32,000 nucleotides of DNA from Candidatus Omnitrophota bacterium (GCA_963662715.1 OY759724.1:3000001-3032000); one strand, 5' to 3'. Shown: positions 16,366-31,917, numbered from the stretch's first letter. The notes: a model not told the origin generated them from the letters alone. Program-made: numbers and translations.

Positions 16366-16408
16366 AAATTTGTGACGGGATTGCTGCTATAATATAAAGA
16401 AATAAGCT

Positions 16409-17035: not shown

Positions 17036-17048
17036 TTTAGCGTAAAAC

Positions 17049-17196
17049 ATGAAGAAAATATTTCTAAAAATCTACGGCTGACCGATGGTACCGAAAAAGG
17101 ACGGTCATGGAAAATATTGCCAAGTCATTGGAAAAGCAAGGGATAGAAGCTAAATTGTTGAAATTTAGTGACTCAAAATACTCCTATGAAAATTAG
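17049..17196 (+). repeat. Mini-ORF module copy C (best preserved)
   Basis: MKKIFLKIYG-TGA (17049-17081) starts 13 nt after the preceding stop, followed by the conserved core. The second ORF is MENIAKSLEKQGIEAKLLKFSDSKYSYEN (17107-17196). It overlaps the ATG of the next gene (17186) by 11 nt. Confidence 0.8.
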
Positions 17197-18238: not shown

Positions 18239-18268
18239 TTATAAAGTAATTTAAAAAAAGGAAGAAAG

Positions 18269-18559: not shown

Positions 18560-18563
18560 AAAT

Positions 18564-18711
18564 ATGACAAAAAAGGTTTATCTTAAAGTATACGTCTGAC
18601 CGATGGTGCCTAAAAAGGACGGCAATGGAAAATATTGCTAAGGTGCTGAAAAAACAGGGAATAAAGATAAAATCGCTGAATTTCAACGACTCCAAAAATA
18701 AGGGGAAATAA
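18564..18711 (+). repeat. Mini-ORF module copy D
   Basis: MTKKVYLKVYV-TGA (18564-18599) starts 4 nt after the DUF1330 stop. The core is CTGACCGATGGTGCCTAAAAAGGACGG. The second ORF is MENIAKVLKKQGIKIKSLNFNDSKNKGK (18625-18711). Its TAA overlaps the ATG of the next gene (TAATG). Confidence 0.8.
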
Positions 18712-19475
18712 TGAAGAAACAATGGTATGAATCATTATTCGAAGATTACGCTCACAAATACGATAAGGAATGTTTTGTTCAAGGCACGATCGGCGAATGC
18801 GATTTTATTGAAGATGAGATAAACCACGTAAAATCCTTAAAGATTATCGATATCGGTTGTGGGACAGGAAGGCATTCTATTGAACTTACTAAAAGGGGAT
18901 ACAACGTGACCGGGGTTGACCTTTCTGATAATCAAATTAAAAGGGCAAGGGAAAAGGCGCAAGAGGCAGGGGTGGCCATCGACTTCCAAACAAAAGATGC
19001 CCGTAATCTTCCGTTTGAAGGTGAATTTGATCTGGCTATTATGTTGTGTGAAGGCGGATTCTCTCTTATGGAAACAGATGAGATGAACTTTGAAATCCTC
19101 AAGAATGCAACAAAAGCGTTGAAAGATAAAGGCAAATTCATTTTTACCACATTAAATGGGTTATTCCCGCTGTTTCATTCTGTCAAGGAATTTTATGAGT
19201 CGGCGCAGAAAGAGGGGCAATCCCAATGTAAGGATTGTTCCTTTGATCTGATGACATTCCGCGATCACAATACCGTTGTCTTTGAAGATGATGCGGGAAA
19301 TAAAAAAGAATTAAAATGCCATGAACGCTATTATGTGCCCAGTGAGATAACGTGGCTTTTAAAGACGCTGGGGTTTAAGAAAATCGGCATCTTTGGCGCA
19401 AAGCTCGGGGCATACTCAAGAAACGACAAATTGACAATCGACGATTTTGAAATGCTTGTTGTCGCGGAAAAATGA
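18711..19475 (+). CDS. Class I SAM-dependent methyltransferase
   Basis: Motif I IIDIGCGTGRHSIELT, then VTGVDLS and the post-I acidic residue. 254 aa. Confidence 0.8.
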   Translation: MKKQWYESLFEDYAHKYDKECFVQGTIGECDFIEDEINHVKSLKIIDIGCGTGRHSIELTKRGYNVTGVDLSDNQIKRAREKAQEAGVAIDFQTKDARNLPFEGEFDLAIMLCEGGFSLMETDEMNFEILKNATKALKDKGKFIFTTLNGLFPLFHSVKEFYESAQKEGQSQCKDCSFDLMTFRDHNTVVFEDDAGNKKELKCHERYYVPSEITWLLKTLGFKKIGIFGAKLGAYSRNDKLTIDDFEMLVVAEK

Positions 19476-19574
19476 TAGAAGATACGAAAAAAATATACCT
19501 TCGAACATTTGGTTGACCGTACGTATCACTACGGTGAAATATTTTTGAGGCTGATATGCGCTTTAAGTGATTGA
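19472..19574 (+). repeat. Mini-ORF module copy F (divergent downstream half)
   Basis: MIEDTKKIYLRTFG-TGA (19472-19516). Its ATG overlaps the methyltransferase stop (ATGA). The +1 frame after the stop reads DRTYHYGEIFLRLICALSD (19515-19574). Confidence 0.65.
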
Positions 19575-19705
19575 TTATCAGTTAGTTATACTGATAAAAT
19601 AAATGAAATAATATAAAAAGTTATATATTACAAAATTGTAATTTTTCGGTCATGTTAATTTAATTTTTGCCTATTATCATGTATGAATAAACCAATTTAT
19701 AAATT

Positions 19706-20383
19706 ATGAAAATATTATTAGTTGAAGACGATAAGCAAACAGCTCAATTTATACTTAATGGATTAACCCAACAGGGTTATGCCGTTCAGCATGCCGAAAA
19801 TGGTTTGGATGGATTACATTTCGCCGAAGTTGAAAAGTATGATGTGGCTATAGTCGACATAATGATGCCAGAGCTTGACGGTTTAAGCATGATTGAAAAA
19901 CTCCGAAATAAGAAAATTATGCTGCCAGTCATAATATTGAGCGCAAAAAGCGACGTTTCCGATAGGGTCAAAGGACTTCAAAAAGGCGGCGATGATTATT
20001 TAGTAAAACCTTTTTCCTTCAGTGAATTATTGGCCAGAATCCAAGCTATCCTTCGCAGATCTTTTTCCAGGCCAGGCATTACTTCATTTCAAATTGGAGA
20101 TTTGAAATTGGATTCAATCAAACGAAAAGTCTATCGGCAAGATAAAGAAATCTTCCTTCCCGTTGGCGAATTCATATTACTTGAATATCTTATGCAAAAT
20201 GCGGGAAGAGTAGTATCAAAGACTATGATTATTGAAAATGTTTGGGATTATAATTTTGATCCAGAAACTAATGTCATCGAAGCACGCATGAGCCGTTTAA
20301 GAAACAAAATTGATAAACCATTTAAGAAAAAACTCCTTCATACCGTCAGAGGATTTGGATATGTTCTGGAAGAAAAAGAATAG
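19706..20383 (+). CDS. OmpR-family response regulator
   Basis: The receiver domain has MKILLVEDD and VAIVDIMMPELDG. The C-terminal winged-helix domain has RMSRLRNKID....LLHTVRGFGYVLE. Confidence 0.9.
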   Translation: MKILLVEDDKQTAQFILNGLTQQGYAVQHAENGLDGLHFAEVEKYDVAIVDIMMPELDGLSMIEKLRNKKIMLPVIILSAKSDVSDRVKGLQKGGDDYLVKPFSFSELLARIQAILRRSFSRPGITSFQIGDLKLDSIKRKVYRQDKEIFLPVGEFILLEYLMQNAGRVVSKTMIIENVWDYNFDPETNVIEARMSRLRNKIDKPFKKKLLHTVRGFGYVLEEKE

Positions 20384-21788
20384 CATTTTCCATTCCGTTG
20401 TTTTTCGTCTTTCCCTATGGTATGCCCTCTTTTTTTCAATAGCGGCCATTCTTGTCTTTTTTATAAGTAAATCGATCCTATCTTCTGATCCCACCAAAAT
20501 TATTGATTATGAATTGCTGCATGATTCTCAAGAGTACAAAAATGAATTCTTGAGAAGAAATATAGAAGAAATGATTGAAGAACTTCATAAAGAAGCTTCT
20601 GAAGAAGGATTGGGGAGAGTTTTTTATAGGCTTTTATCCTCTGATTATACAGAAATTAGCTCTTCCAATTTAAATCAATGGAATCATTTAGACTTAAATA
20701 AACTTAAAAATTTAGCCAAATTGTCTTCTCAAAAAGATGTTGTTTTTGAAACACTGACCTACGAAAACAATCAACTCAATACCAGAGTTATCAGCAGAAA
20801 AATCGGAAATGGCAACTATATTTTACAAATCGGATTTATCATTCAGAACAACCAAGCCCTCATGGAAAGTTTTAGATATTGGATCTTCTGGATTTTTATT
20901 GCCCTTTTAGTTTGCGGGATCATTTTGGGCTGGTGGATAATGCAAAAAACTATGTCCGGGGTAAAAAGAGTTGCAGAAACAGCTGTGAAAATAGGGAAAG
21001 ACGGATTAGTCCATAGAGTTGAAACGAAAAATGAAGGGACAGAGATAGATAATCTTGCTGAAGCATTTAATAATATGCTAAATCGGATAGAAAAATTAAT
21101 GTCGGAATTAACAGATATAACTAATAACGTAGCTCATGATCTAAGAACACCAATAACTCGCATACGGGGTATAGCAGAAACATCATTGAAAAATAATGCT
21201 AATTCTCATTCAAACGATGAGAGCTACTCAATTATTATCGAAGAGTGTGACCGGCTTGTTTATCTTGTTAACACCATATTAGAAATTTCCGAAATTCAGG
21301 CTGGAATAAAAAAGTACGATCAAACAAACATTGAAATAATTGATCTTGTTGAAAGAGGTTGTGATATTTTTCAGCCTGTTGCAGAAGATAAAAATATAAA
21401 ACTAAAATTTGAAGGACAAAAAACGCCGATTTATATTCAAGGAAACATGAATAATTTGCAAAGGGCAGTTTCTAACCTATTAGATAATGCCATAAAATTC
21501 ACTCAAGAGAACGGAGAAATTTTAGTCAGGGTAACTAAATCTGGGCACCAAGCGTTAATTTCGTTTAAAGACACGGGCATTGGCATTAAACAGGAAAATA
21601 TAAAACGTATTTTTGAAAAATTTTTCAGAGTACAATCAAGCCGGTCAACCCCAGGAAATGGATTGGGCTTAAGTTGGGCGCAATCCATTATTTCCACAAT
21701 GAATGGAAAAATTACAGTGCAAAGCGAACTTGGCACAGGAAGCACCTTCATCATCCACATTCCTCTTTATTCCACAACATTACAATAA
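20361..21788 (+). CDS. Sensor histidine kinase (two TM segments, HAMP, HisKA, HATPase_c)
   Basis: H-box NNVAHDLRTPIT, N-box LLDNAIKFT, G1 FKDTGIGI, G2 GNGLGLS. ATG 20361 (MFWKKKNSIF...) overlaps the regulator's 3' end by 23 nt. The ORF track starts earlier, at 20310. Confidence 0.85.
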   Translation: MFWKKKNSIFHSVVFRLSLWYALFFSIAAILVFFISKSILSSDPTKIIDYELLHDSQEYKNEFLRRNIEEMIEELHKEASEEGLGRVFYRLLSSDYTEISSSNLNQWNHLDLNKLKNLAKLSSQKDVVFETLTYENNQLNTRVISRKIGNGNYILQIGFIIQNNQALMESFRYWIFWIFIALLVCGIILGWWIMQKTMSGVKRVAETAVKIGKDGLVHRVETKNEGTEIDNLAEAFNNMLNRIEKLMSELTDITNNVAHDLRTPITRIRGIAETSLKNNANSHSNDESYSIIIEECDRLVYLVNTILEISEIQAGIKKYDQTNIEIIDLVERGCDIFQPVAEDKNIKLKFEGQKTPIYIQGNMNNLQRAVSNLLDNAIKFTQENGEILVRVTKSGHQALISFKDTGIGIKQENIKRIFEKFFRVQSSRSTPGNGLGLSWAQSIISTMNGKITVQSELGTGSTFIIHIPLYSTTLQ

Positions 21789-21873
21789 TGTAATCTACCT
21801 ATCAGTTTTTCATAATTTTATAATGATATACTTTTCGCATTAAAAAGAAACGTAAGATGTGTAATGACCCTAG

Positions 21874-22665
21874 TTAAGCAAGGATTTTTTTGTGTAGATC
21901 GAGTTCTTTGTTAATCCATCTTTTGTAAAACTCTTCAGGCGTAGCGAAGAATAATGCCTGATGAGGGAAATCGGTGTTGTAATCGTTGATCCAACGCTTG
22001 AAGTCATCTTGAAGATCAAATGGGTTGTCCCATTCATTGATCCAAATGAAATCTTCTTTGATTCTGCGGATGACGCGTTCGGTGTCAGCATTGCCTTTGG
22101 GGTTGGACCAGGTTGAGAAGATCTGCTTGATGCCGGCCAGTGAACAATTAAGCCTGAAGCGCCCGCTGGTGGGCTGACAGCCATTGTCCGAGATCAGGTG
22201 CAGGTCATGATTCAGTGTGTCTTTGATGCCGTTTGGGAATCGGTTGTTGATGGCCATTTCCAGGGCATCCAGCCAGTCATCAGTCTTTGACTGGATGTTG
22301 AGGCTATAGCCGATAATTTCTTTGGTATACCAGTCTAGGACGATGGTCAGATAGAACCAGCCCCAGGTCGCCAGTTTGATTTTTGTCATATCGATACCCC
22401 AGAATTGATTGGGGTGAGAAGCTCGTGGTTTCCGGCGGAGGTTGCCACGCTTGGCCTTCAAGCGATCGTTGGGTTGAACCGTTAATTGATTTTCTTGCAT
22501 GAGGCGTTGGACACAATTTTTGCCAATTTTGTAATGTTTACGGTTGTTTAAATAGGCCCAGACTGAACGGTATCCCCAGAGGGGATGTTGCTTTTTAATT
22601 TGTCGGATTTTGACTAAATGTTTTTGGTCTTGTTCGATACGCTTTAGAGAACGGCGTCTTTTCAT
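21874..22665 (-). CDS. IS3-family transposase OrfB (DDE / rve integrase core)
   Basis: WGIDMTKIKL (first D), LISDNGCQPTS (second D) and NPKGNADTERVIRRIKEDF (E) in the typical order. It lies in the -1 frame relative to orfA. Confidence 0.85.
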   Translation of the reverse strand: MKRRRSLKRIEQDQKHLVKIRQIKKQHPLWGYRSVWAYLNNRKHYKIGKNCVQRLMQENQLTVQPNDRLKAKRGNLRRKPRASHPNQFWGIDMTKIKLATWGWFYLTIVLDWYTKEIIGYSLNIQSKTDDWLDALEMAINNRFPNGIKDTLNHDLHLISDNGCQPTSGRFRLNCSLAGIKQIFSTWSNPKGNADTERVIRRIKEDFIWINEWDNPFDLQDDFKRWINDYNTDFPHQALFFATPEEFYKRWINKELDLHKKILA

Positions 22666-22967
22666 AACTCGTACTCGTTTTTTTTTAGTTCAACGGTCAA
22701 GTCGCCGATGATGCGTTTGAGTTTGGCGTTTTCTTTTTCAAGACGTTGCTCTTTCTGGGACTGTTGTTTGATGTCAAAGGCCATATGGCATTCTTTGAGG
22801 AACTGGTCGCGCCATTTGTAATATTGGGTTTGGCCAATTTGGTATTTGTTACAAAGTTTACTGATGTCGATTTTCCCGCTGAGGCCTTCAAGCACGATTT
22901 GGGTCTTTTGTTGGCTGGTCCATTGGCGTTTTTTCATGGGAATTGGGCTCCTTTCCTTGGAACTCAA
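22662..22967 (-). CDS. IS3-family transposase OrfA (HTH plus leucine-zipper-like coil)
   Basis: RQWTSQQKTQIVLEGLSGKIDISKLCNKYQIGQTQYYKWRDQF is an IS3/IS911-type HTH. A C-terminal coiled coil ends at the slippery A run. ATG 22937 is an alternative start. Confidence 0.8.
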   Translation of the reverse strand: MSSKERSPIPMKKRQWTSQQKTQIVLEGLSGKIDISKLCNKYQIGQTQYYKWRDQFLKECHMAFDIKQQSQKEQRLEKENAKLKRIIGDLTVELKKNEYEL

Positions 22968-23036
22968 TTCTACACCATTTGTTTAAATTTGTTAACTAGG
23001 GTCACTATAGATGTTTCTAAAATGAAAGGAGTATTT

Positions 23037-23828
23037 ATGTTTGGTAAAAAACTGTATGTAATCCTTTTTGCGTTTATGAGTTTTGTTTTTACGCAAAAAT
23101 GCGTCGAAGCATCTGAACTCTTCGACAATGTTTTAAGTTCAGTAACAGAGGAGTTGAAAAAAGTAGAAGATGGAGCAGTGGGGATTGGAGTTATGTATGA
23201 AACTTCACCATATAAAGGTGCTGATGATGAAGTTATGCCCGTGCCAATGGTTATGGGAGAATACAAAAATTTCTTCATTGAAGGGACCGAATTTGGTTAC
23301 AAAATTATTAAGAATGACGATTGGGAGTTATCTGCAATCCTGGGCCCTCGTATGGATGGGTATGAAGCAAGCGATAGTACAGATTTAGCAGGAATGAAGG
23401 AACGCAAGAATTCCTTTGATGGTGGTGCAAAATTAGAATGGGATGCAAAGATTTTTGAATTAGAGGTGTCTGTTTTGGCTGATTTGGCAAACAACCATCA
23501 AGGACAGGAAGTTGAATTTGAACTTTCAAAAGAGTTTTTGGGCGGGTTTTTAACGCCTTATGTAGGCGTGACATGGCTCAGCAAAGATCTGGCAAATTAC
23601 TACTACGGAGTCAGGTCATCAGAAGCACGGTCAGGACGACCTGCTTACACCGCAGATAGCTCTTTTAATCCCGCTGCTGGGGTGCGCATAGTTTATCCAA
23701 TTAATGAAAAATGGGCGATTTTTAGTGATTTTGAATATGAAATATTGGATTCCAATATTAAAGATTCACCAATTGTCGATCAAGATGGATTGTTTTCATC
23801 AATGTTTGGAGTAGTTTACCAATTCTGA
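23037..23828 (+). CDS. MipA/OmpV-family outer-membrane protein
   Basis: ATG at 23037 lies 5 nt after AAAGGAG. Signal peptide MFGKKLYVILFAFMSFVFTQKCVEA. The family pattern is SPYKGADDEVMPVPMVMGEYKNFFIEG..FGYK ... GPRMDGYEASDS..LAGM.ERK.SFDGG, with a terminal aromatic residue (YQF). The 22746 start in the ORF track runs back into the IS element. Confidence 0.75.
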   Translation: MFGKKLYVILFAFMSFVFTQKCVEASELFDNVLSSVTEELKKVEDGAVGIGVMYETSPYKGADDEVMPVPMVMGEYKNFFIEGTEFGYKIIKNDDWELSAILGPRMDGYEASDSTDLAGMKERKNSFDGGAKLEWDAKIFELEVSVLADLANNHQGQEVEFELSKEFLGGFLTPYVGVTWLSKDLANYYYGVRSSEARSGRPAYTADSSFNPAAGVRIVYPINEKWAIFSDFEYEILDSNIKDSPIVDQDGLFSSMFGVVYQF

Positions 23829-23835
23829 TTACAAA

Positions 23836-26800
23836 ATGATGAAAACATTCTTTGAATTCTTTGCAAGAAGAACCCTCCTTGCTAATTTAATATCGATTAT
23901 GATTGTTCTTCTGGGGATAGGTTCTCTGCTCACGATTAAACGTGACAGCTATCCTCATGTTGATTTCGGAGAAGTTTTAATCGAAACATCCTACCCTGGA
24001 GCTTCACCCGAGGATGTTGAAATCAACATTACGAATAAGATCGAAAACGAGTTAAAAAGCGTTACGGGGATAAAAAATTTCACTTCCGTATCAATAGAAG
24101 GCGTCTCGCTCATTACTGTTATCATTGATCCGACAGTCCGGGACATGAAAAAAGTGAAAAATGATGTCCGGGATGCCGTCAACCGTATCAAAGATTGGCC
24201 CCGAGAGATTGAAAATTTTCCTTTTATTGAAGAGTCAAATTCTGCAACGTTTCCAATTATGGAAGTCGCCCTTTCAGGAGAGATGCCTTACAGGGATCTT
24301 TATCAAACAGCTAAACTACTAAAGAAAAAGCTGGAAAATCTTCCGGAAGTTTGCCGAATCAATGAATATGGATATCGAGCGAGAGAAATTCATATCGAAC
24401 TTGCCCCGGAAAAAATCAAAGATTATCAAATCCCAATAAATTGTATTAAGACAGCCATCCAAAAAAGAAACATCCGCTCCACGGCGGGAAATTCAGAATC
24501 ATTAACTGATAATAAAAATATCACCATTTCATCTCAATTCAGCAGCCCTTCTGAAGTTGGCGATGTAATCATTCGGAACTCATATGATGGCCCTCTTATC
24601 AGATTGCATGACCTTGCTGTTATTGAAGATGATTTTGAAAAAGCACAGACCCTCTCGCGTGTTAACGGGATATCTTCCATTTCCTTTGAAATAATAAAAG
24701 CTGAGTCTGCCGATATTTTAAGAGCCGTAGAATCTGTCAAAAAAGTCATCAAAGAATCAAAGGAGATTACGTCCGCAGGACTAAAGATATCTATTGCCAA
24801 TGATTCCTCTCATTATGTCAGAAATCGTCTTAATATTGTACAAAGAAACGCCGTCTTGGGCCTTATCTTTGTCATTTTACTACTGCGGATCTTTATGAAT
24901 GCAGAAACATCTTTTTGGATTGCCGCAGGAATTCCTATATCTTTGTTAGGGACGATTTATTTGATGCCTTTTTTTAATGTTTTCTTGGATAGTCTCTCCT
25001 TGAGCGCCATGATTATGGTAATCGGTATCATCGTCGATGATGCTATTATTATCAGTGAAAATATTTATAAACATAGGGAGCAGGGCAGTCCTCCGCTCAA
25101 GGCCACAATAAGCGGCATTCAGGAAATTTTTTGGCCTGTCCTCACAACCGTCCTGACAACCTTTTTCGCCTTTGTTCCCATGTTTTTTATGGAAGGTCTT
25201 TTTGGGAAATTTGTCACGGTTATTCCCTTGGTGATAACGTTGGCGTTATTCATATCCCTGATTGAATCATTTATAGCGCTTCCAGCGCATCTTCAACATG
25301 GATTGCGAAAACATAGGGGAGCACGACATTCAAAAAACAAATTACAATATTTAAAAGCAGTATATTTCTCGCGGATGAAACAAATATTGAAATTCCGGTA
25401 TATGGTTGTTTTTATTTTTATTATTGTCTTTGGAGTAACCCTACATTTCGGATTGACCCGCCTCAAGACGATACTTTTTCCGGATAAAATGGCAGAGGAG
25501 ATTTCAATCACGGCACAACTTCCCCAAGGATCCAGCCTGCAACACACATCTCAGAAATTCTCGGAGATTGAGCAAATTATAGCCCGCTTACCTAAAACCG
25601 AACTGAGTTCTTTTGTTACGCGAATCGGTGAAGACGAGTTTTCTGATATCAAAATTAAAAATCATGGATACATGATATTGTTTCTAACGCCTTTTAGCGA
25701 ACGGAAACGCAGCGCTCAGGAAATTGTTGAAGAGCTTCGAAAATCCACACGCCAATTGAAAGGCTTTGAAAATATTTCTTATTTCATAGAAACCGGCGGC
25801 CCTCCCGATGGAAAACCCGTTGAAATCTGCATCGTGGGAAGCAATGATACGATACGAAAAAAACTCGCCGATGATGTTGTTTCCTTTTTAAATACACTTA
25901 AAGGAGTCAAAGATATTACCCGTGACGATAAAATCGAACAAGGCCTGATTGAACTGGACATAGATTACCTTCAACTGGAAAGGTTCGGTTTAACTGTTGA
26001 AAATATTGCATCAAACGCCCGCATCGCCTATGAAGGAGAAGTTGTCACCAAAGTCAGATATGGGGATGAGGACGTTAATTTCAGGCTTTTGTTCAATAAA
26101 AACTCCGATGACAATCCTGATCGACTCGAAAACCTCCTGCTGGCAAATAACCAAAATAAACTTATTGAGTTAAACAAGGTCGCCAAATTTAAACACACAA
26201 AAGGTCAAAGCCTCTATCAGCATCATAACGGTCAAAGGGCAGTCAAAATCGAAGCAGACGTTTTTCAAGACATCATGACTCCTGATGACGTGATGGATTT
26301 AGTAGAGAATAAATTCAATCTTGACAGAGACTATCCCGGGACAAAATTTATAAAAGAAGGCGAGATCTTTGAAACAGAGCAATCTTTCAAAAGCCTGTTC
26401 CTGACCATGATCATCGCATTGACCGGGATTTATTTCCTTTTAATTGTCTTGTTCAATTCTTTAACACAGCCTCTTATTGTCATGGCAGCCATCCCTTTTG
26501 GTATTTTCGGTGTCATTCTTGCTTTTTTACTTCACAAAGAACCTTTAAGCTTTATCGCGTTGCTTGGCGCCATCGGGTTAACGGGTGTTGTTGTCAATGA
26601 TTCCCTCGTTCTTGTCAGCCATTTAAATCAAATCAAAAAAAGTTCACCTGCAGGACTTTCCATCATCGACATTGTTGCCCAAGGATCTTCCGACCGGTTA
26701 AGGGCAATCATTATGACAACAGTTACTACCGTAGGAGGACTTATTCCGCTTGCGTACGGATGGGGAGGATCCGACCCCTTTATGGCTCCCATGGCATTGT

Positions 26801-28398
26801 CCATGAGTTACGGATTATTGATCGGAACCCCTTTGACATTACTGATCACCCCTTGTTTGTACCTAATGCTACATAATCTGTCTGAGAAAACCAAAATCCG
26901 AATAAGGCAAAAAAGGCAACGCATTCTGACGAAAAGAAAAAATAGACGAATGCTTTCTTTACTGCTTGTTGTCTTTATTGGGCTTTTTACAATCTCGACT
27001 GAAAGTAACAGTTCGGAATCACCTTTGACAATAAACAATACCTCAACAGAGGGAGAAAACAAAAAGATTCTTTCCTTCGACTCATATATCAAAATTGTCA
27101 CGGATAAGCTACCTGAGCTCAAAAAGAATAGAATCGCAGTTGAACGATCTAGAAATTCTGTTTATGCGGCTTCTGCCGTTGACGATTTATCTTTTCATGG
27201 TGAATTTAAATATAACGAAAATGACGAGTATTCTGATGAATATCCTGCCCAGTCTTCCCGGGTTAATGGTTACACGGCAAATATGGCCATGAGGAGAACA
27301 ATCTCTAAAAGCGGGAGCAGGATAGCTGCCGGCATTGAATATGCAAACTCGTCGGACGCATCCGTTGACAACGGGCGACGGTATCACACCCCTACGGTCT
27401 TTGTTCAAATCACACAACCTATTTTAAAAAATATTTTCGGCATGGCCGACCGGTTCGCAAAAAATGATGCCCAGATGCAACTGGCTATTGATGAAATTCG
27501 CCGGAAAGAAAGCGACGAAAGTGACATGAGTTATTATCAAAAATTATATTTTAATTGGATCACCTGTTATAAACATCTCCATTATTTAAAACAATGCATG
27601 ACGAACGCTGAAAAGCTTCTTGCGGACACAAAAGAAAAACTGAGCTCCGGACTTGTTGACAATGATGAACTCCAGGAGGCGGAAGCTTCTTTACTATTAT
27701 ATCAGGAACAATATCATGAAGAAGAAATTATCCATAACGCAATACTGTCTGAATTGGACATCTTTTTTGATACGAATAAATACTTGCCCCAACTTCATGA
27801 ATTTGAAAAACAGTTTGAGCAATTACTTTCGTTCCATTATGAATTTGTCCCTTTTACAGATACAAGCGCCAGTGAGATTTATGCCTTAATGAACAAAAAA
27901 CTCAATAACAGCAGGAAAGTCTATGCCAACAATCTTCTTCCGGAAATCAATCTGGTCGGTCAATACAGCAATAAGTCGACGGATCATAATTTTTCTAATG
28001 CTTTAGATAATATGCAAGATGAAGATTACTATATCGGACTCAATGTCACTATTCCTTGGGAGAACAGAAAGGCGAAAAGTGCATTAAAGAATATCCTTTT
28101 AGATATTGATGACCTCAAGATTGATTACGACCTTTCCAAGAATGAATATTTAAAAAGCTTGAAAAATTTACAAAGACTAATTAAAGGCAAAAAAAGAATA
28201 TTACAAGTAAAAGAAAACTTACTGAAATCATTAGAATCAAAGTATAATACTGAGAAAAAGAAACTCATGCATGCTCGCTTGGATTTGCGTCACATTATTG
28301 ATACTGAGAATGAAATCGCTTCAGAGCAAATAGAAATCATTAATATAAAAAATGAGATTATCGTGTTAAACATAGACTATTCAAATTTAACAAATTAA
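23836..28398 (+). CDS. RND efflux permease (AcrB/CzcA superfamily, about 1038 aa) continuous in frame with a TolC-like outer-membrane-factor domain (about 480 aa)
   Basis: This is one uninterrupted 1520-aa ORF. The N-terminal part has the RND layout of 12 TM segments and two large periplasmic loops. After the last TM comes a basic stretch KTKIRIRQKRQRILTKRKNRR, then a hydrophobic segment MLSLLLVVFIGLFTIST with an in-frame ATG at 26950. A domain follows with OEP/TolC-like helical repeats and strands (LPEINLVGQYSNKS..., YYIGLNVTIPWENRKAK). Confidence 0.75.
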   Translation: MMKTFFEFFARRTLLANLISIMIVLLGIGSLLTIKRDSYPHVDFGEVLIETSYPGASPEDVEINITNKIENELKSVTGIKNFTSVSIEGVSLITVIIDPTVRDMKKVKNDVRDAVNRIKDWPREIENFPFIEESNSATFPIMEVALSGEMPYRDLYQTAKLLKKKLENLPEVCRINEYGYRAREIHIELAPEKIKDYQIPINCIKTAIQKRNIRSTAGNSESLTDNKNITISSQFSSPSEVGDVIIRNSYDGPLIRLHDLAVIEDDFEKAQTLSRVNGISSISFEIIKAESADILRAVESVKKVIKESKEITSAGLKISIANDSSHYVRNRLNIVQRNAVLGLIFVILLLRIFMNAETSFWIAAGIPISLLGTIYLMPFFNVFLDSLSLSAMIMVIGIIVDDAIIISENIYKHREQGSPPLKATISGIQEIFWPVLTTVLTTFFAFVPMFFMEGLFGKFVTVIPLVITLALFISLIESFIALPAHLQHGLRKHRGARHSKNKLQYLKAVYFSRMKQILKFRYMVVFIFIIVFGVTLHFGLTRLKTILFPDKMAEEISITAQLPQGSSLQHTSQKFSEIEQIIARLPKTELSSFVTRIGEDEFSDIKIKNHGYMILFLTPFSERKRSAQEIVEELRKSTRQLKGFENISYFIETGGPPDGKPVEICIVGSNDTIRKKLADDVVSFLNTLKGVKDITRDDKIEQGLIELDIDYLQLERFGLTVENIASNARIAYEGEVVTKVRYGDEDVNFRLLFNKNSDDNPDRLENLLLANNQNKLIELNKVAKFKHTKGQSLYQHHNGQRAVKIEADVFQDIMTPDDVMDLVENKFNLDRDYPGTKFIKEGEIFETEQSFKSLFLTMIIALTGIYFLLIVLFNSLTQPLIVMAAIPFGIFGVILAFLLHKEPLSFIALLGAIGLTGVVVNDSLVLVSHLNQIKKSSPAGLSIIDIVAQGSSDRLRAIIMTTVTTVGGLIPLAYGWGGSDPFMAPMALSMSYGLLIGTPLTLLITPCLYLMLHNLSEKTKIRIRQKRQRILTKRKNRRMLSLLLVVFIGLFTISTESNSSESPLTINNTSTEGENKKILSFDSYIKIVTDKLPELKKNRIAVERSRNSVYAASAVDDLSFHGEFKYNENDEYSDEYPAQSSRVNGYTANMAMRRTISKSGSRIAAGIEYANSSDASVDNGRRYHTPTVFVQITQPILKNIFGMADRFAKNDAQMQLAIDEIRRKESDESDMSYYQKLYFNWITCYKHLHYLKQCMTNAEKLLADTKEKLSSGLVDNDELQEAEASLLLYQEQYHEEEIIHNAILSELDIFFDTNKYLPQLHEFEKQFEQLLSFHYEFVPFTDTSASEIYALMNKKLNNSRKVYANNLLPEINLVGQYSNKSTDHNFSNALDNMQDEDYYIGLNVTIPWENRKAKSALKNILLDIDDLKIDYDLSKNEYLKSLKNLQRLIKGKKRILQVKENLLKSLESKYNTEKKKLMHARLDLRHIIDTENEIASEQIEIINIKNEIIVLNIDYSNLTN

Positions 28399-28446
28399 AT
28401 TTCATATGTATCCTGTGAGATAGGACAGGAAGGAAAACAGTTGAGA

Positions 28447-28803
28447 ATGAATACAAGACAAATTCTTTATTGGAGTCCAAGAATACTATGCATTCTTTTT
28501 ACGATATTTTTAAGTCTCTTTGCGTTGGATGTATTTAGTGAAGGTTATAATTTCACAGATACCGTTGTTGCCTTGTTTATGCATTTGGTGCCAACCTTTA
28601 TTATTCTAATTGCGTTGGCAGTTGCCTGGAAAAAAGAGGGAGTAGGTACGGTGATTTTTATTGCTTTTTCGTTATTTATTTTGATTATGAGCCGCGGTGA
28701 AAGCTGGATTATATCCGGGCCACTATTTTTTATAGGCACTCTTTTTTTATTAAATTGTATATATAAACATCATGTTCGTTCATCTGAATTTTCGAACAAA
28801 TGA
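28447..28803 (+). CDS. Small integral membrane protein (about four TM segments), family not recognised
   Basis: 118 aa from ATG 28447. Hydrophobic segments: ILCILFTIFLSLFAL, VVALFMHLVPTFIILIALAVAW, VGTVIFIAFSLFILIM and ISGPLFFIGTLFLL. Confidence 0.6.
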   Translation: MNTRQILYWSPRILCILFTIFLSLFALDVFSEGYNFTDTVVALFMHLVPTFIILIALAVAWKKEGVGTVIFIAFSLFILIMSRGESWIISGPLFFIGTLFLLNCIYKHHVRSSEFSNK

Positions 28804-28846
28804 ATGAATATGATGTTTAGGTGAAATTTGGAGTTTGCAACATATT

Positions 28847-28955
28847 ATGAATAAACAAGATACAATAACAATTTTCTTGAGAACCTACGGCTGACCGTAT
28901 GGCCAAGTTCCGCACGATGATTTTGAAGGTTTTGAGTATGATGTATGAGGAATAA
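28847..28955 (+). repeat. Mini-ORF module copy E (divergent downstream half)
   Basis: MNKQDTITIFLRTYG-TGA (28847-28894) starts 43 nt after the preceding stop. TACGGCTGACCG is conserved. The +1 frame reads DRMAKFRTMILKVLSMMYEE (28893-28955). Confidence 0.65.
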
Positions 28956-29045
28956 ACTTATATAATTTTATATAGTTGGAAATATAAGATTAGCCTTTCA
29001 TAATGCCGCATTTTGTTGTATTTATAGCTTCCTATTTAAAAACGG

Positions 29046-29092
29046 GTTACCTAACCTAACAAACAGGTAAATTATTTATTCTGTTAGGTAAC
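29046..29092. repeat. Perfect 10-bp inverted repeat with a 27-nt spacer
   Basis: GTTACCTAAC (29046-29055) and GTTAGGTAAC (29083-29092) are followed by an A/T-rich run. It could be a hairpin or an operator. Confidence 0.5.
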
Positions 29093-29230
29093 TTATTAAA
29101 AAAATTTTTAACAAAAAATAATCAAAGATCAAAATACGTTATAGCTTTAGTATTTCGGCAAAAGTAACCGATGTAAACAGTCTGGATTGATAAATGTTTA
29201 ATGGGTGATCCAAATTTCGAAAATTCATAC

Positions 29231-29258
29231 TTGACAAGTAAAATGTAAGTGATATCAT
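29231..29258 (+). promoter_or_regulatory. Candidate sigma-70-type promoter for the Fur-family gene
   Basis: TTGACA (29231-29236), a 16-nt spacer, then TATCAT (29253-29258). AGGAG lies upstream of the ATG at 29301. This is sequence match only. Confidence 0.4.
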
Positions 29259-29300
29259 TTAATTGAAAGTGAAAACCATTTGCATTTAGGAGAAAAGTGA

Positions 29301-29780
29301 ATGCCAAGAAGACATAGAAGAGGACATGCGTGGTGGCATGGTAAATTTCAAGGATATGGATATAAAATCACAGCTAGCCGTGAAATTGTTTTTGGTATAT
29401 TAGCAGGATCTGAAAAACATTTGAGTGCCGAGGATATTTATATTAAAGCGCATGCGATGAATCCTGCTATTGGTATGACGACAATATATCGCACTTTGGA
29501 TATTTTAACAGAAATGAGGTTAGTTAATAAATTTGATTTTGGTGATGGTCGGGCAAGATACGAGTTAACGGAAGGCCCAAAAGGAGCCCTTCATCACCAT
29601 CATCTGATTTGCACATCATGTAACAGGGTAATTGATTATACAGATTTTATTGATGAAGAGGTCGAACTTTTGACAAGAACAGAGAAAGGTCTAACTGGAA
29701 AATATAATTTTAAAATTTTTCATCATTTAATTCAGTTTTATGGTTTATGTGATAAATGTCAAAAAGGTCAGGATAATTAA
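29301..29780 (+). CDS. Fur-family metalloregulator (Fur/Zur/PerR class) with an atypical basic/aromatic N-terminal extension
   Basis: Winged-helix part ITASREIVFGILAGSEKHLSAEDIYIKAH......GMTTIYRTLDILTEMRLV. Metal sites HHHHLICTSCNRV and GLCDKC (two CxxC pairs). The extension is MPRRHRRGHAWWHGKFQGYGYK. Confidence 0.8.
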   Translation: MPRRHRRGHAWWHGKFQGYGYKITASREIVFGILAGSEKHLSAEDIYIKAHAMNPAIGMTTIYRTLDILTEMRLVNKFDFGDGRARYELTEGPKGALHHHHLICTSCNRVIDYTDFIDEEVELLTRTEKGLTGKYNFKIFHHLIQFYGLCDKCQKGQDN

Positions 29781-29792
29781 TTTTTTTTATTT

Positions 29793-29811
29793 TTTAATGA
29801 TAATGGTTGTC
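29793..29811. promoter_or_regulatory. Fur-box-like operator upstream of the DUF5320 gene
   Basis: TTTAATGATAATGGTTGTC matches the classical GATAATGATAATCATTATC consensus at about 14 of 19 positions by hand alignment. It contains the 7-1-7 core TGATAAT-G-GTTGTCA and ends 22 nt before the ATG at 29833. Confidence 0.45.
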
Positions 29812-29832
29812 ATTTACAATTAGGGAATTTTA

Positions 29833-30321
29833 ATGCCAAATTTTAACGGGACAGGACCAAAAGGAACAGGTCCTTTAACAGGTCAAGGGATGGGATATTG
29901 TGTCGTTAAAGTGGATAAAGATAATTTAATAACTGAACAAGGTATTGGAAAGGAGGTGGACGATATGCCAAGAGGAGACAGAACAGGACCTTCTGGATTA
30001 GGGCCTATGACAGGGCGTGGTGCGGGTTATTGCGCCGGTTATTCTGTGCCAGGATTTATTAATCCAATTTCAGGTAGAGGTAGTGGATTTGGATTCGGAC
30101 GCGGCTTTGGCAGAGGACGCGGCTTAGGTCGTGGTTTTGGCTGGCGCGGAGCTGGTTATCCTTATGCCTATGGGAGTCCTTATCCTGCGGTTCCTTATGC
30201 GCCAGAAATGACCCCTCAACAAGAAACAGATATGTTGAAAGGTCAGGCTAAGGTTATGCAGGACGAAATTAATGCTATCAATGAACGTATAAAAGAATTA
30301 GAGTCCAACTCAAAATCTTAA
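29833..30321 (+). CDS. DUF5320-family protein with a duplicated N-terminal G-rich motif
   Basis: The canonical DUF5320 pattern MPRGDRTGPSGLGPMTGRGAGYCAGY...GRGFGRGRGLGRG... with a C-terminal coil (LKGQAKVMQDEINAINERIKELE) starts at an internal ATG (29965) preceded by AGGAGGTG. The 44 aa before it (MPNFNGTGPKGTGPLTGQGMGYCV...) are a second copy of the N-terminal motif. Confidence 0.75.
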   Translation: MPNFNGTGPKGTGPLTGQGMGYCVVKVDKDNLITEQGIGKEVDDMPRGDRTGPSGLGPMTGRGAGYCAGYSVPGFINPISGRGSGFGFGRGFGRGRGLGRGFGWRGAGYPYAYGSPYPAVPYAPEMTPQQETDMLKGQAKVMQDEINAINERIKELESNSKS

Positions 30322-30341
30322 ACAATACAGGAAAATGCAAG

Positions 30342-30393
30342 ATAGGTGGAAATAGGCGAAAATGGTTTATTTCCACCTATAACCTCATTTTTT
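30342..30393 (+). terminator. Rho-independent terminator after the DUF5320 gene
   Basis: A perfect 13-bp stem, ATAGGTGGAAATA (30342-30354) with TATTTCCACCTAT (30368-30380), encloses a 13-nt loop. A T run (CATTTTTTA) follows within 10 nt. Confidence 0.75.
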
Positions 30394-30538
30394 ATGGAGA
30401 ATAAAATTTAATAATAGTCTCCGATGGGGTATTTTTTAATTTTCGTTATTAATATAAGTATTTTGTAGCATATTTAACGAAATCAACAAATATATTTTGA
30501 AATGTTTTGAACAAGTATCATTAATGGGGGAAATATAA

Positions 30539-30712
30539 ATGGCAGTTAAAATCGATAATGATAAATGTACAGGATGCGGTGCTTGTGTCGATATCTGCGG
30601 TGTTACTGCTATAACAATAGAAAGCAATAAGGCCGTTGTAAGTGAAGAATGTGTTGAGTGTGGCGCATGCATTAGTCAGTGTCCTAATGAAGCAATATCG
30701 TTTTCAAATTAA
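30539..30712 (+). CDS. Small 2x[4Fe-4S] ferredoxin (57 aa; below the ORF-track cutoff)
   Basis: Hand translation gives MAVKIDNDKCTGCGACVDICGVTAITIESNKAVVSEECVECGACISQCPNEAISFSN. It has two CxxCxxCxxxC(P) cluster motifs. The stop TAA is at 30710-30712. Confidence 0.85.
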   Translation: MAVKIDNDKCTGCGACVDICGVTAITIESNKAVVSEECVECGACISQCPNEAISFSN

Positions 30713-30724
30713 GGAGGTGTGCAT

Positions 30725-31135
30725 TTGAAAGTTGCTATTTCGACTGATAATAATTTCGTATCGGCTCATTTTGGTAGATGTCCGTCTTTTACGATCATTG
30801 ACTTAGAAGATGGAAAAGTTGTGAAACAAGAAACTATTGATAATCCCGGTCATGAGCCAGGTTTAATCCCAAAACTTCTCAACGATAAAGGAGTCCAGTG
30901 CATTATTGCCGGTGGTATGGGAATGCAAGCAACTGGCTTTTTTCAGAAATACGGCATCGAGACTGTCGTTGGTATACAAGGAATAATAAGTGACGTTGTC
31001 AAAAAATTGCAAGATGGAACATTGGAAGGCGCCGAAAGCCTTTGCAAACCAGGTGATGGAAAAGGCTATGGATTAGATAAAACAGTGTGTGATCACCCAC
31101 ATGAAGAGGGTTGTGAGCATGAAGGAGGTGAGTAA
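30725..31135 (+). CDS. NifB/NifX-like (dinitrogenase FeMo-cofactor-binding fold, PF02579-type) protein with a Cys/His-rich tail
   Basis: MKVAISTDNNFVSAHFGRCPSFTIIDLEDGK...IIAGGMG is the family signature. The C-terminal tail is CKPGDGKGYGLDKTVCDHPHEEGCEHEGGE. TTG 30725 lies 7 nt after AGGAGG and is preferred over GTG 30719. Confidence 0.75.
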   Translation: MKVAISTDNNFVSAHFGRCPSFTIIDLEDGKVVKQETIDNPGHEPGLIPKLLNDKGVQCIIAGGMGMQATGFFQKYGIETVVGIQGIISDVVKKLQDGTLEGAESLCKPGDGKGYGLDKTVCDHPHEEGCEHEGGE

Positions 31136-31503
31136 TGAAAATCTGCATAACATCTGAAGGAAATAATTTCGACTCAAAAGTAGATCAGCGTTTTGGAAGG
31201 TGCCAATATTTTATTTTTGTAGATACAGACACTTCTGAATTTGAGGCTGTTCAAAATCAAAATGTTGACGGTATGGGTGGTGTTGGCGTTCAATCCGGTC
31301 AGCTTATGGCCGAAAAGCAAACCAAAGTTATTATTACGGGGAAAGTCGGTCCTAATGCATCTCAGACTTTAGAATCAGCAGGCATTGAAATTATTCTTGA
31401 TGTTGATGGCACTGTTAAAGACGCGCTTGAACGCTTCAATAAGGGGGAACTTAAGGTTACTAAAGGACCAAATGCAGGTGAAAAAGCAGGGCTAAACAAT
31501 TGA
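31135..31503 (+). CDS. NifB/NifX-like (PF02579-type) protein, second paralogue
   Basis: MKICITSEGNNFDSKVDQRFGRCQYFIFVDTDT...VIITGKVGPNA. The start overlaps the preceding stop (TAATG). Confidence 0.75.
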   Translation: MKICITSEGNNFDSKVDQRFGRCQYFIFVDTDTSEFEAVQNQNVDGMGGVGVQSGQLMAEKQTKVIITGKVGPNASQTLESAGIEIILDVDGTVKDALERFNKGELKVTKGPNAGEKAGLNN

Positions 31504-31518
31504 TGCCGTATTTAAACA

Positions 31519-31917
31519 ATGATAGAGAAAAAGATTTATTATCACGATACAGATGCCATTGGCATTGCTTATCACGCTTCTTATTTAAAAATTTTAGAAG
31601 AGGATAGAACTGAATTTTTTGAATCACAAGGAATTTCGGTTAAAGAGTTGCATAAAAGTGGCAAGCATTTTGTTATTAAAGATTTATATATTCGATATAA
31701 GCATCCTGCCAAATTTGGTGACGTAGTTGTTTGTGATTCGAGTATTAGAAAAATAACAGCAGCTCAAATTTTCTTTTCCCAAAAAATATTTAATAAAGCG
31801 AATAATGCCCTTCTTGTCGAAGCGGATATTATTTTAGTTATCGTCAATGAACAGTTGCATCCTGTGTTAATACCGGAAAATATAAATTCGTTATTATTAA
31901 ATGAAGTAATAACTTAA
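31519..31917 (+). CDS. Hotdog-fold acyl-CoA thioesterase (4HBT / YbgC-like)
   Basis: YYHDTDAIGIAYHASYLKILEEDRTEFF matches the YbgC/4HBT N-terminal catalytic Asp region. At 132 aa it is a typical size. Confidence 0.7.
   Translation: MIEKKIYYHDTDAIGIAYHASYLKILEEDRTEFFESQGISVKELHKSGKHFVIKDLYIRYKHPAKFGDVVVCDSSIRKITAAQIFFSQKIFNKANNALLVEADIILVIVNEQLHPVLIPENINSLLLNEVIT

What the first reader, a model, noticed from the sequence alone, without database searches (positions are those of the whole stretch)
23836..28398. RND pump and TolC-like factor in one 1520-aa ORF, with no membrane-fusion (adaptor) gene
Seen: there is no stop codon between the RND permease part and the TolC-like part. The junction reads ...LMLHNLSEKTKIRIRQKRQRILTKRKNRR-MLSLLLVVFIGLFTIST-ESNSSE.... 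This is a strongly basic stretch, then a hydrophobic segment that could be either a 13th TM helix or the signal peptide of an independently initiated protein. The in-frame ATG is at 26950, with no convincing SD upstream. The gene upstream is a MipA-like outer membrane protein, not an HlyD/MFP adaptor, and none follows. Established knowledge: tripartite RND systems need a periplasmic adaptor, and their three parts are separate polypeptides. Inference: this is either a covalently tethered pump-channel protein or a nested-gene arrangement. Either way the adaptor is missing locally.
Basis: partly seen in the sequence, partly recalled or inferred. Interest (0 to 1): 0.6.

Follow-up and report, generated by a model that had tools for sequence, protein, structure and literature searches.

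The report
RND pump fused to TolC-like channel
One 1520-codon gene encodes a complete drug-efflux pump followed by a complete outer-membrane exit channel that keeps its own export signal; the same fusion arose independently in other bacteria, and these pump-channel pairs have no linked adaptor gene.

Summary
ORF 23836-28398 (1520 aa) joins a full-length AcrB-type RND permease (residues 1-1038) in frame to a full-length TolC-family outer-membrane factor (OMF) precursor (1039-1520). No HlyD-type adaptor gene lies anywhere in the 32 kb. M1039 aligns with the first residue of stand-alone homologues of about 480 aa, so the hydrophobic junction is the OMF's own signal peptide. One extra A in the A6 run at 26937-26942 would restore a 1036-aa RND, a TAG stop, 4 nt and the ATG, so the fusion is one nucleotide from the usual two-gene layout. 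It is a singleton, and an assembly error cannot be excluded, but 75 other homopolymer runs of 6 nt or more sit in intact ORFs. The same architecture occurs independently in at least two other lineages. One is a clade whose members are only 44-52% identical and have no Met at the junction. My best reading is a real, recent fusion translated as a polyprotein, with the internal signal peptide exporting the OMF part and probably cleaved by signal peptidase I. A permanent tether is geometrically unlikely. OMF+RND pairs without a linked adaptor gene are a family-wide pattern, mostly in Spirochaetota.

The parts
19706..20383 (+). OmpR-type response regulator (Response_reg + Trans_reg_C)
   Evidence: Pfam
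20310..21788 (+). Sensor histidine kinase (HAMP, HisKA, HATPase_c). The ORF as listed starts at TTG 20310; the true start is probably near 20380.
   Evidence: Pfam; ORF list
21854..23015 (-). IS3-family insertion sequence with 24-nt terminal inverted repeats; orfA 22662-22967 and orfB 21874-22665. It lies between the kinase gene and the MipA start.
   Evidence: Inverted repeats; rve/HTH_21; HTH_Tnp_1
23022..23828 (+). MipA/OmpV-family outer-membrane protein with an N-terminal signal peptide. It ends 7 nt before the RND start.
   Evidence: Pfam MipA E 1.6e-55; NCBIfam OmpV; start and signal peptide
23836..26949 (+). RND permease module (residues 1-1038): complete AcrB/MdtB-type pump including its basic cytoplasmic tail
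   Evidence: ACR_tran profile 1-1021/1021; NCBIfam RND_permease_2; end-to-end alignment to MdtB, MexK, CmeB, MexB and AcrB; tail length within the relatives' range
26881..26949 (+). Basic cytoplasmic tail SEKTKIRIRQKRQRILTKRKNRR (residues 1016-1038). In the fusion it serves as the positively charged region ahead of the hydrophobic segment.
26937..26945 (+). A6 homopolymer followed by an out-of-frame TAG. One extra A gives ...KRKK-stop, a 1036-aa RND.
26950..27000 (+). Signal-peptide-like segment MLSLLLVVFIGLFTIST (residues 1039-1055). The ATG aligns with the N-terminus of stand-alone homologues. Small residues fit the -3/-1 rule (TIS|T or IST|E).
27001..27063 (+). Low-complexity linker (ESNSSESPLTINNTSTEGENK...), disordered in the model
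   Evidence: AF2 pLDDT below 50 for module residues 14-35
26950..28398 (+). TolC-family outer-membrane factor module (residues 1039-1520, 482 aa): a complete protomer
   Evidence: Pfam OEP; family profile vs TolC 1ek9 E 1.8e-8; AF2 pLDDT 88.6; Foldseek hits only OMFs at probability 1.00; stand-alone homologues of 470-483 aa
28441..28803 (+). DUF7670 small protein, 43 nt downstream; possibly co-transcribed, role unknown
   Evidence: Pfam

Best explanation
The ORF is a genuine but evolutionarily recent in-frame fusion of two formerly adjacent genes: a complete RND permease and a complete TolC-family OMF precursor. It was created when a one-base loss in an A-run removed the RND stop codon. The RND C-terminus is cytoplasmic. 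Its basic tail (KRKNRR) followed by the OMF's own signal peptide therefore has the correct topology to start export of the 460-residue OMF part across the inner membrane. Signal peptidase I then most likely cuts after the small-residue site (TIS|T or IST|E). The mature products would be the usual two proteins, made in the 1:1 ratio that a 3:3 RND:OMF complex needs. Internal initiation at ATG 26950 may add more OMF. The pump belongs to a widespread family of OMF+RND gene pairs that have no linked periplasmic adaptor gene. Here it sits behind a two-component system and a MipA/OmpV-type outer-membrane protein, an arrangement that in Pseudomonas and Vibrio senses cationic peptides and switches on RND efflux. 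Shown: the domain content, the completeness of both modules, the 1-nt relation to a two-gene layout, the recurrence and conservation of such fusions elsewhere, and the absence of linked adaptors. Inferred: translation as one chain, cleavage by signal peptidase, direct or adaptor-in-trans assembly, and the regulatory link.
For: Both modules are complete. M1039 aligns with residue 1 of stand-alone homologues of 470-483 aa, which carry classical signal peptides. Adding one A gives a 1036-aa RND, TAG, 4 nt, then the ATG. Independent natural fusions share the layout of basic tail, hydrophobic core of about 10-12 residues, then an AXA-like site. P0227, P0272 and P0273 are 44-52% identical over their full length and have no Met at the junction. 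P0248 has identical DNA in two runs, no homopolymer at its junction, and stands alone between opposite-strand genes. The window's RND module is 51-55% identical to unfused pumps but 30-37% to fused ones. Its OMF module is 35-38% identical to stand-alone proteins but 22-24% to fused ones, so the window is a separate event. In P0248 and P0273 only about 3 residues separate the AXA-like site from the first conserved OMF element, which is far too short for a tether from the inner membrane. In the window, 75 other homopolymer runs of 6 nt or more lie in intact ORFs. Adaptor-less context. MipA/OmpV with a two-component system controlling RND efflux: PMC10936184 and PMC12012098.
Against: The window's fusion is a singleton. 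No relative above 55% identity exists with which to compare the junction, no reads are available, and the junction lies in an A6 run, the commonest place for assembly indels. Retention of the ATG and of an out-of-frame stop 4 nt upstream is what an artefact would also look like. No cleavage-site predictor or proteomic data were available, so cleavage is inferred from motif conservation and geometry only. From ATG 26950 the signal peptide has no Lys or Arg in its N-region, which is unusual for an independent precursor, so the two-gene ancestor is not a textbook case either. An adaptor may be encoded elsewhere in the genome.
Confidence: 0.5

Rival explanations
1. Assembly or sequencing artefact. 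The true genome has A7, so there are two ordinary genes: a 1036-aa RND ending KRKK-TAG, and an OMF starting 4 nt later.
For: One extra A restores a canonical layout with an RND length inside the relatives' range of 1002-1062 aa. The fusion is a singleton in 5.8 billion proteins. L012's unfused RND also ends ...AAA AAA TAA.
Against: 75 other homopolymer runs of 6 nt or more, including runs of 7-9 nt, lie within intact ORFs in the same 32 kb, and no other gene looks frameshifted. That gives a rule-of-three upper bound of roughly 4% error per run. Lys/Arg-rich tails inevitably contain A-runs, and an out-of-frame stop within a few codons of the ATG is not rare by chance. The same fusion is clearly real in other lineages.
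Confidence: 0.15
2. Nested gene. The long ORF is real, but functional OMF is made mainly by independent initiation at ATG 26950 inside the RND-OMF message, and the read-through fusion is a minor or useless by-product.
For: The ATG is retained exactly where stand-alone homologues start. Lack of an SD is not an objection, because many genes in the window have none.
Against: From this ATG the signal peptide has no basic N-region. The fused clade has no Met at the junction, yet keeps the architecture through 44-52% divergence, so the polyprotein route must work. No promoter or RNA structure stands out at the junction. This rival can coexist with the best explanation.
Confidence: 0.15
3. Recent inactivating mutation. 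The fusion is real, but the product is misassembled or degraded, so the locus is decaying.
For: It is a singleton. An IS3 element is inserted directly upstream of the operon. The cassette is absent from the Fur locus of a related genome.
Against: Both modules are intact over 1520 codons with no further lesions. The topology is permissive, and the same fusion has been fixed elsewhere.
Confidence: 0.1
4. Permanently tethered pump-channel. The hydrophobic segment is a 13th transmembrane helix and the OMF stays covalently attached to the RND, replacing the adaptor.
For: The topology is formally compatible (basic tail inside, hydrophobic segment, periplasmic OMF). There is no linked adaptor.
Against: The hydrophobic cores are only about 10-12 residues long and are followed by helix-breaking and small residues, as in signal peptides. 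The OMF N-terminus feeds a short strand and helices that lead up to the barrel strands. By the published sizes of TolC and AcrB, which I cite from memory, that is over 100 A from the inner membrane. The linker is about 22 residues in the window and about 3 in P0248 and P0273. Stand-alone homologues are ordinary secreted precursors.
Confidence: 0.05
5. Programmed -1 ribosomal frameshift at A_AAA_AAT. A slip reads TAG at once and yields RND alone, while the unshifted frame yields the fusion, setting a ratio as in dnaX.
For: The heptamer fits X_XXY_YYZ, and the -1 frame has TAG immediately after it.
Against: There is no downstream stimulatory structure (fold z-score 0.16) and no SD-like stimulator upstream. 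The other fusions have different junctions. A-rich heptamers are expected in a Lys-rich tail.
Confidence: 0.03

Closest known systems
Tripartite HAE1-type RND efflux systems (AcrAB-TolC, MexAB-OprM, MdtABC-TolC)
   Same: The pump module aligns end to end with MdtB, MexK, CmeB, MexB and AcrB and keeps the TM4 Asp-Asp pair. The channel module has the TolC/OprM fold.
   Different: The two parts are in one ORF. There is no HlyD-family adaptor gene in 32 kb, nor next to the relatives. TM10 has Asn-Asp where MdtB has Lys-Asn. The OMF model has an extra beta-hairpin in repeat 1.
Borrelia burgdorferi BesABC (spirochaete RND system with a hairpin-less adaptor)
   Same: It is a spirochaete-type efflux system in which the adaptor is reduced and direct RND-OMF contact has been proposed (PMC4446572). 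The window's OMF family is mostly from Spirochaetota.
   Different: BesA still exists as a gene in the operon. Here no adaptor gene is linked at all, and the RND and OMF are fused.
Other natural RND-OMF fusion proteins found here (P0227/P0272/P0273 clade; P0248)
   Same: The order is the same: complete RND, short basic tail, signal-peptide-like segment with an AXA-type site, complete OMF. None has a linked adaptor, and TetR lies upstream in two of them.
   Different: Module identities of only 22-37% to the window point to independent origins. Three of the four have no Met at the junction, and their linkers are shorter. The window still carries the ATG and a stop one base out of frame.
Bradyrhizobium FbcH cytochrome b/c1 polyprotein (recalled from memory; not found in the held library)
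   Same: A polytopic inner-membrane protein with a cytoplasmic C-terminus is fused to a periplasmic partner through that partner's signal peptide, which is cleaved after export.
   Different: It is an unrelated protein family, and cleavage is demonstrated there but only inferred here.
carRS-ompV-virK (V. cholerae) and ParRS-mipBA (P. aeruginosa) envelope-stress modules
   Same: A two-component system plus a MipA/OmpV barrel is linked to induction of an RND pump (PMC12012098, PMC10936184). The window has RR, HK, MipA and the pump in one row.
   Different: In those systems the pump is encoded elsewhere. Here an IS3 element separates the kinase from MipA. No function has been tested.

Membership tests
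RND permease, AcrB/HAE1-like (Pfam PF00873 ACR_tran) | Full-length match to the family profile, about 1000 aa | tested here: met
   Residues 5-1013 match profile positions 1-1021 of 1021, E 1.4e-172. RND_permease_2 scores 542 bits, below NCBI's subfamily cut-off of 1250, so this is a divergent clade.
RND permease, AcrB/HAE1-like (Pfam PF00873 ACR_tran) | 12 transmembrane helices with two large periplasmic loops and a cytoplasmic C-terminus | tested here: inconclusive
   Hydropathy peaks cluster at residues 8-37, 331-544 and 850-1013, with loops at about 38-330 and 545-849. The alignment to solved pumps is colinear. No dedicated topology predictor was run.
RND permease, AcrB/HAE1-like (Pfam PF00873 ACR_tran) | Proton-relay residues: TM4 Asp-Asp and TM10 Lys (AcrB D407, D408 and K940, from memory) | tested here: inconclusive
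   TM4 VDDA is present. TM10 reads GVVVNDS where MdtB has GIVKKNA, so Lys is replaced by Asn-Asp. This holds across the clade, fused and unfused.
Outer membrane factor, TolC family (Pfam PF02321 OEP) | Two OEP repeats in a protein of about 450-500 aa | tested here: met
   OEP E 1.9e-18 in two stretches. The family profile hits TolC, ST50 and CusC with E down to 5e-9.
Outer membrane factor, TolC family (Pfam PF02321 OEP) | TolC fold: long alpha-helical barrel helices plus beta-barrel strands in each repeat | tested here: met
   AF2 pLDDT 88.6, with helices at 162-232 and 373-440 and strands in both repeats. The top 44 Foldseek hits are all OMFs, at probability 1.00 and TM-score 0.6-0.75. Repeat 1 has four strands instead of two.
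Outer membrane factor, TolC family (Pfam PF02321 OEP) | N-terminal Sec signal peptide (or lipoprotein signal) on a separate precursor | tested here: inconclusive
   The signal-peptide-like segment is present and aligned with those of stand-alone homologues. It is internal to a 1520-aa ORF and lacks its own basic N-region.
Classical tripartite RND efflux operon | Linked HlyD-family periplasmic adaptor (MFP) gene | tested here: not met
   No HlyD domain was found in any ORF of the window. None was found in the flanks tested for relatives. An adaptor elsewhere in the genome is not testable here.
Classical tripartite RND efflux operon | Pump and channel are separate polypeptides | tested here: not met
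   A single ORF with no stop between the modules. Whether the mature proteins are separate is not testable with these tools.
Programmed -1 frameshift site | Slippery heptamer plus a downstream stimulatory structure | tested here: not met
   The heptamer A_AAA_AAT is present, but the downstream fold is no better than shuffled sequence (z-score 0.16).

The most novel reading that the evidence does not exclude
RND-OMF polyproteins are a real and recurrent gene architecture. The chain is made as one piece, the OMF half is exported through an internal signal peptide, and the resulting RND and OMF trimers assemble into a working trans-envelope pump by direct docking, with no periplasmic adaptor anywhere in the genome. 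That would be a two-component alternative to the tripartite paradigm, widespread in Spirochaetota and several candidate phyla.
Probability: 0.2. Interest if true: 0.85.

Novelty: new variant of a known kind. Interest (0 to 1): 0.55.

Why it matters
RND efflux pumps are a main cause of intrinsic multidrug resistance, and current structural models make the periplasmic adaptor indispensable for linking pump to channel. A family in which the pump and channel genes are paired, and sometimes fused, with no linked adaptor offers a natural test of whether direct RND-OMF docking can work. The fusions also show how a secreted partner can be attached to the cytoplasmic end of a membrane protein and still reach its destination. 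For annotation, such 1500-aa ORFs should not automatically be split as errors or be labelled simply as RND permease.

Tried and rejected
1. The word-indexed homologue search with the C-terminal part alone found one weak hit; the exhaustive search was needed.
2. An exact look-up of the window's protein in the contig index failed, and cluster look-ups gave no names, so the organism stays unidentified. The genome-contig scan did not return the window's own genome.
3. The 30-sequence alignment was too divergent for a locus scan; a 5-sequence alignment worked.
4. The roughly 390-aa genes upstream of OMF-RND pairs looked like adaptors by size but are AraC regulators. The 255-283-aa and 375-aa downstream genes are not adaptors either.
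5. A scan of metagenome contigs for the exact junction with a variable A-run found nothing.
6. Programmed frameshifting was considered and dropped for lack of a stimulatory structure.
7. Promoter and terminator scans were at background level.
8. Base composition does not mark either module as foreign.
9. The Fur-linked relative L066 lacks the cassette, so it gives no junction to compare.
10. Literature searches found no description of RND-OMF fusions and no paper on the FbcH precedent in the held library. These searches are limited, so absence is weak evidence.


Full report
OBSERVATION. The ORF list gives 23836..28398 on the + strand, 1520 aa, with an ATG start. Pfam finds ACR_tran over residues 5-1013, covering profile positions 1-1021 of 1021 (E 1.4e-172). 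It also finds OEP in two stretches, the best at 1357-1520 (E 1.9e-18). The upstream gene is MipA/OmpV (E 1.6e-55; NCBIfam OmpV). I scanned every ORF of 100 aa or more in the 32 kb, and none carries an HlyD/MFP domain.

BOTH MODULES ARE COMPLETE.
- The 119 best relatives of the whole ORF are unfused RND pumps of 1002-1062 aa and at most 55% identity.
- These relatives end 6-35 residues after the conserved PCLY motif. The window's 23-residue basic tail before M1039 fits that range.
- The nearest solved structures (MdtB, MexK, ZneA, CmeB, MexB, AcrB) align end to end.
- For the C-terminal 482 aa, an exhaustive HMMER search of 1.84 billion representatives found 526 relatives. The closest are stand-alone proteins of 470-483 aa with up to 38% identity (E 2.6e-94). 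They align from their residue 18-34 to query residue 26-42.
- In the multiple alignment, M1039 lines up with their initiator Met, and the hydrophobic segment lines up with their signal peptides.
- A family profile hits TolC 1ek9 at E 1.8e-8.
- An AlphaFold2 model has mean pLDDT 88.6 and pTM 0.76, with 68-71-residue helices and barrel strands in both repeats.
- Foldseek returns only outer-membrane factors (TolC, CmeC, CusC, OprM, VceC and others) at probability 1.00 and TM-score 0.6-0.75.
The hydrophobic junction is therefore the signal peptide of a complete OMF precursor, not a leftover or an extra RND helix.

ONE NUCLEOTIDE FROM TWO GENES. The junction DNA is ...ACG AAA AGA AAA AAT AGA CGA ATG.... 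An A6 run (26937-26942) directly precedes an out-of-frame TAG. Inserting one A gives a 1036-aa RND ending ...ILTKRKK-TAG, then 4 nt, then ATG 26950. The fusion is therefore explained by loss of one A from an A7 run, either in the organism or in the assembly. The missing SD carries no weight, because many genes here, including the RND start, lack one.

IS IT AN ARTEFACT? I could not obtain reads, and the protein is a singleton on a 3.36 Mb contig.
- Against an artefact: 75 other homopolymer runs of 6 nt or more (14 of length 7, two of 8, one of 9) lie inside intact ORFs in this window, and no gene looks frameshifted. That gives a rule-of-three upper bound of roughly 4% error per run.
- For an artefact: the retained ATG and the nearby out-of-frame stop are what an error would leave.
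- A scan of metagenome contigs for the junction with a variable A-run found nothing.
I put the artefact reading at about 0.15.

THE SAME FUSION EXISTS ELSEWHERE. Two of the 150 best representatives are long: P0227 (1544 aa) and P0248 (1499 aa). A profile search with the three fusions added P0272 (1547 aa) and P0273 (1493 aa).
- P0227, P0272 and P0273 are 44-52% identical to one another over their full length, so in that clade the fusion has persisted through long divergence.
- Their junctions have no Met before the hydrophobic segment: KRGKRT-IVPIFIVGMLLTATALHA|QNT, WKKRK-IPVIVVLLSVLGTGGLYA|QTN, FSKK-IILIFVFLFFAGSAFS|EVL. Nested initiation cannot explain them.
- P0248 (PCLYLMMMSPPSTGSRPVTAATATILLCLAAPAPLQA|ANE) occurs on contigs from two sequencing runs with 8,500 identical bases. 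Its junction is GC-rich with no homopolymer, only two codons after the conserved PCLYL. The gene stands alone between opposite-strand genes.
- P0272's contig was seen in three samples.
- The window's RND module is 51-55% identical to unfused pumps but 36-37% to the clade and 30% to P0248. Its OMF module is 35-38% identical to stand-alone proteins but 22-24% to fused ones. The window is therefore a third, independent event.
- None of 47 loci from GTDB species representatives is fused. Fusion is thus rare but recurrent.
- The RND-then-OMF gene order that allows fusion is itself rare: L012 is the only unfused example I saw.

HOW IT MOST LIKELY WORKS.
- Established knowledge: the C-terminus of AcrB-type pumps is cytoplasmic.
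- A basic tail followed by a hydrophobic segment is the correct orientation for a start-transfer signal that exports what follows.
- In all five fusions the hydrophobic core is only about 10-12 residues long. It is followed by small or helix-breaking residues that obey the -3/-1 rule, at the same place as in stand-alone precursors such as SVYA|A, MLSA|G and AWA|E. This looks like a cleavable signal peptide rather than a stable membrane helix.
- Geometry points the same way. In the model the chain after the signal peptide enters a short strand and two short helices that lead up to the barrel strands. By the published sizes of TolC and AcrB, which I cite from memory, that is well over 100 A from the inner membrane in an assembled pump.
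- The spacer is about 22 disordered residues in the window and only about 3 residues in P0248 and P0273.
- I therefore infer a polyprotein that is cut by signal peptidase I. That would give the usual two mature proteins in a 1:1 ratio and make the fusion nearly neutral, which would explain why it recurs.
- The precedent I recall is the Bradyrhizobium FbcH cytochrome b/c1 precursor. I could not find it in the held library.
- Cleavage is inferred, not shown.
- Internal initiation at ATG 26950 may contribute in the window. However, from that Met the signal peptide has no basic N-region, whereas the fusion supplies KRKNRR.
- A dnaX-like -1 frameshift at A_AAA_AAT is formally possible but has no stimulatory structure (z-score 0.16).

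THE MISSING ADAPTOR IS A FAMILY TRAIT.
- Near the closest RND relatives there is either a 484-aa OMF-like gene 10 nt upstream and no adaptor (L004, L005), or no partner at all (L001-L003). Those 484-aa proteins are distant homologues of the window's module (E 2e-11 and 1e-9).
- A genome scan with the OMF family returned 54 loci, mostly Spirochaetota and Leptospirales MAGs.
- In 24 of the 47 surveyed loci the OMF gene is adjacent to an RND gene, almost always in the order OMF then RND.
- The genes of about 390 aa upstream are AraC regulators (nine of nine tested).
- Other flanking genes are TetR regulators, a methyltransferase, an ABC ATPase, a MatE transporter or unrelated.
- In 10 loci the RND is followed at once by opposite-strand genes.
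- The flanks of the fused genes likewise hold TetR or unrelated genes.
- The other common context is a short HlyD adaptor (266-302 aa), a MacB/FtsX permease, an ABC ATPase and then the OMF. The family can therefore work with an adaptor in ABC-type systems.
- Whether RND pairs borrow an adaptor in trans or dock directly cannot be decided without whole genomes.
- Borrelia BesABC, with its hairpin-less adaptor, is the nearest described case (PMC4446572).
- I found no paper describing RND-OMF fusions. The search was limited.

CONTEXT IN THE WINDOW.
- The gene order is response regulator (19706-20383), histidine kinase (to 21788), IS3-family element (21854-23015, 24-nt inverted repeats), MipA/OmpV (23022-23828, with its own signal peptide), then the fusion 7 nt later, then DUF7670, then Fur.
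- In P. aeruginosa, MipA acts with ParRS as a polymyxin (co)sensor that induces MexXY-OprA (PMC10936184).
- In V. cholerae, carRS-ompV-virK senses antimicrobial peptides and raises vexAB expression (PMC12012098).
- By analogy, which is inference only, this locus may be a self-contained sensor-plus-pump cassette. The IS now separates the kinase from MipA.
- A related genome keeps Fur-DUF5320 but has other genes upstream, so the cassette is not ancestral at this position.

VERDICT. In the window the fusion is one base away from an ordinary gene pair and may be recent or, less likely, an error. As a class, RND-OMF polyproteins with an internal signal peptide and no linked adaptor are real and, as far as I could find, undescribed. 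I rate it a new variant of a known kind, with interest 0.55.

Noticed in passing
window 21854-23015: An IS3-family insertion sequence (24-nt inverted repeats, orfA and orfB on the minus strand) lies between the histidine kinase gene and MipA. It ends 7 nt before the MipA ATG, so it may uncouple the two-component system from the pump operon or supply an outward promoter.
   Followed up: partly
window about 27187-27420 (OMF module residues 80-157): The AF2 model shows four long beta-strands in repeat 1 but two in repeat 2. The family profile's first 173 positions correspond to only about 92 residues of TolC. This suggests an extra beta-hairpin per protomer across the whole family, which might give a wider barrel or a plug.
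   Followed up: partly
window 26587-26604 (RND residues 918-923): TM10 reads GVVVNDS where MdtB has GIVKKNA. By my recollection of AcrB K940, the proton-relay Lys is replaced by Asn-Asp. The motif is shared by fused and unfused members of this RND clade, and the TM4 Asp-Asp pair is kept.
   Followed up: partly
L009, L011, L013, L014, L017, L020, L021, L023-L025, L027, L029, L033: A recurrent Spirochaetota cluster: a short HlyD-family adaptor (266-302 aa), a MacB/FtsX permease (about 410 aa), an ABC ATPase (about 228 aa) and an OMF of the same family. L012 combines this cluster with AraC-RND inserted before the OMF.
   Followed up: partly
L001-L003: The two closest RND relatives (54-55% identity) have no OMF or adaptor nearby. 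A Chalcone_3-like gene and a 129-aa gene of unknown function lie upstream instead.
   Followed up: no
window 4083-10340 versus 14830-31917: There is a sharp compositional difference. The type II secretion / type IV pilus-like cluster (PilB/GspE, PilC/GspF, secretin, PilT-like) is 53% GC, while the rest of the window is about 34-46%.
   Followed up: no
window 17168-18238: A single ORF combines a GNAT acetyltransferase domain (residues 45-135) with a SAM-dependent methyltransferase domain (178-290). It is another two-domain fusion and was not examined.
   Followed up: no
window 28441-28803: A small DUF7670 gene lies 43 nt after the OMF stop, on the same strand and possibly in the same transcript. 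It has weak membrane-protein-like hits only.
   Followed up: no
window 29301-31503; L066 10001-11034: The Fur-DUF5320 pair is conserved in a related 592 kb contig from sample ERZ21869602, the same sample as the closest RND relative P0003. In the window it is followed by two Nitro_FeMo-Co (NifB/NifX-like) genes. Upstream synteny is broken.
   Followed up: partly
L006 about 5810-5850: The junction of the P0227 fusion also has an A8 run and an out-of-frame TAG just before its hydrophobic segment, although that fusion is conserved in diverged relatives. A-runs next to out-of-frame stops are therefore a by-product of Lys-rich tails and not in themselves a sign of error.
   Followed up: partly
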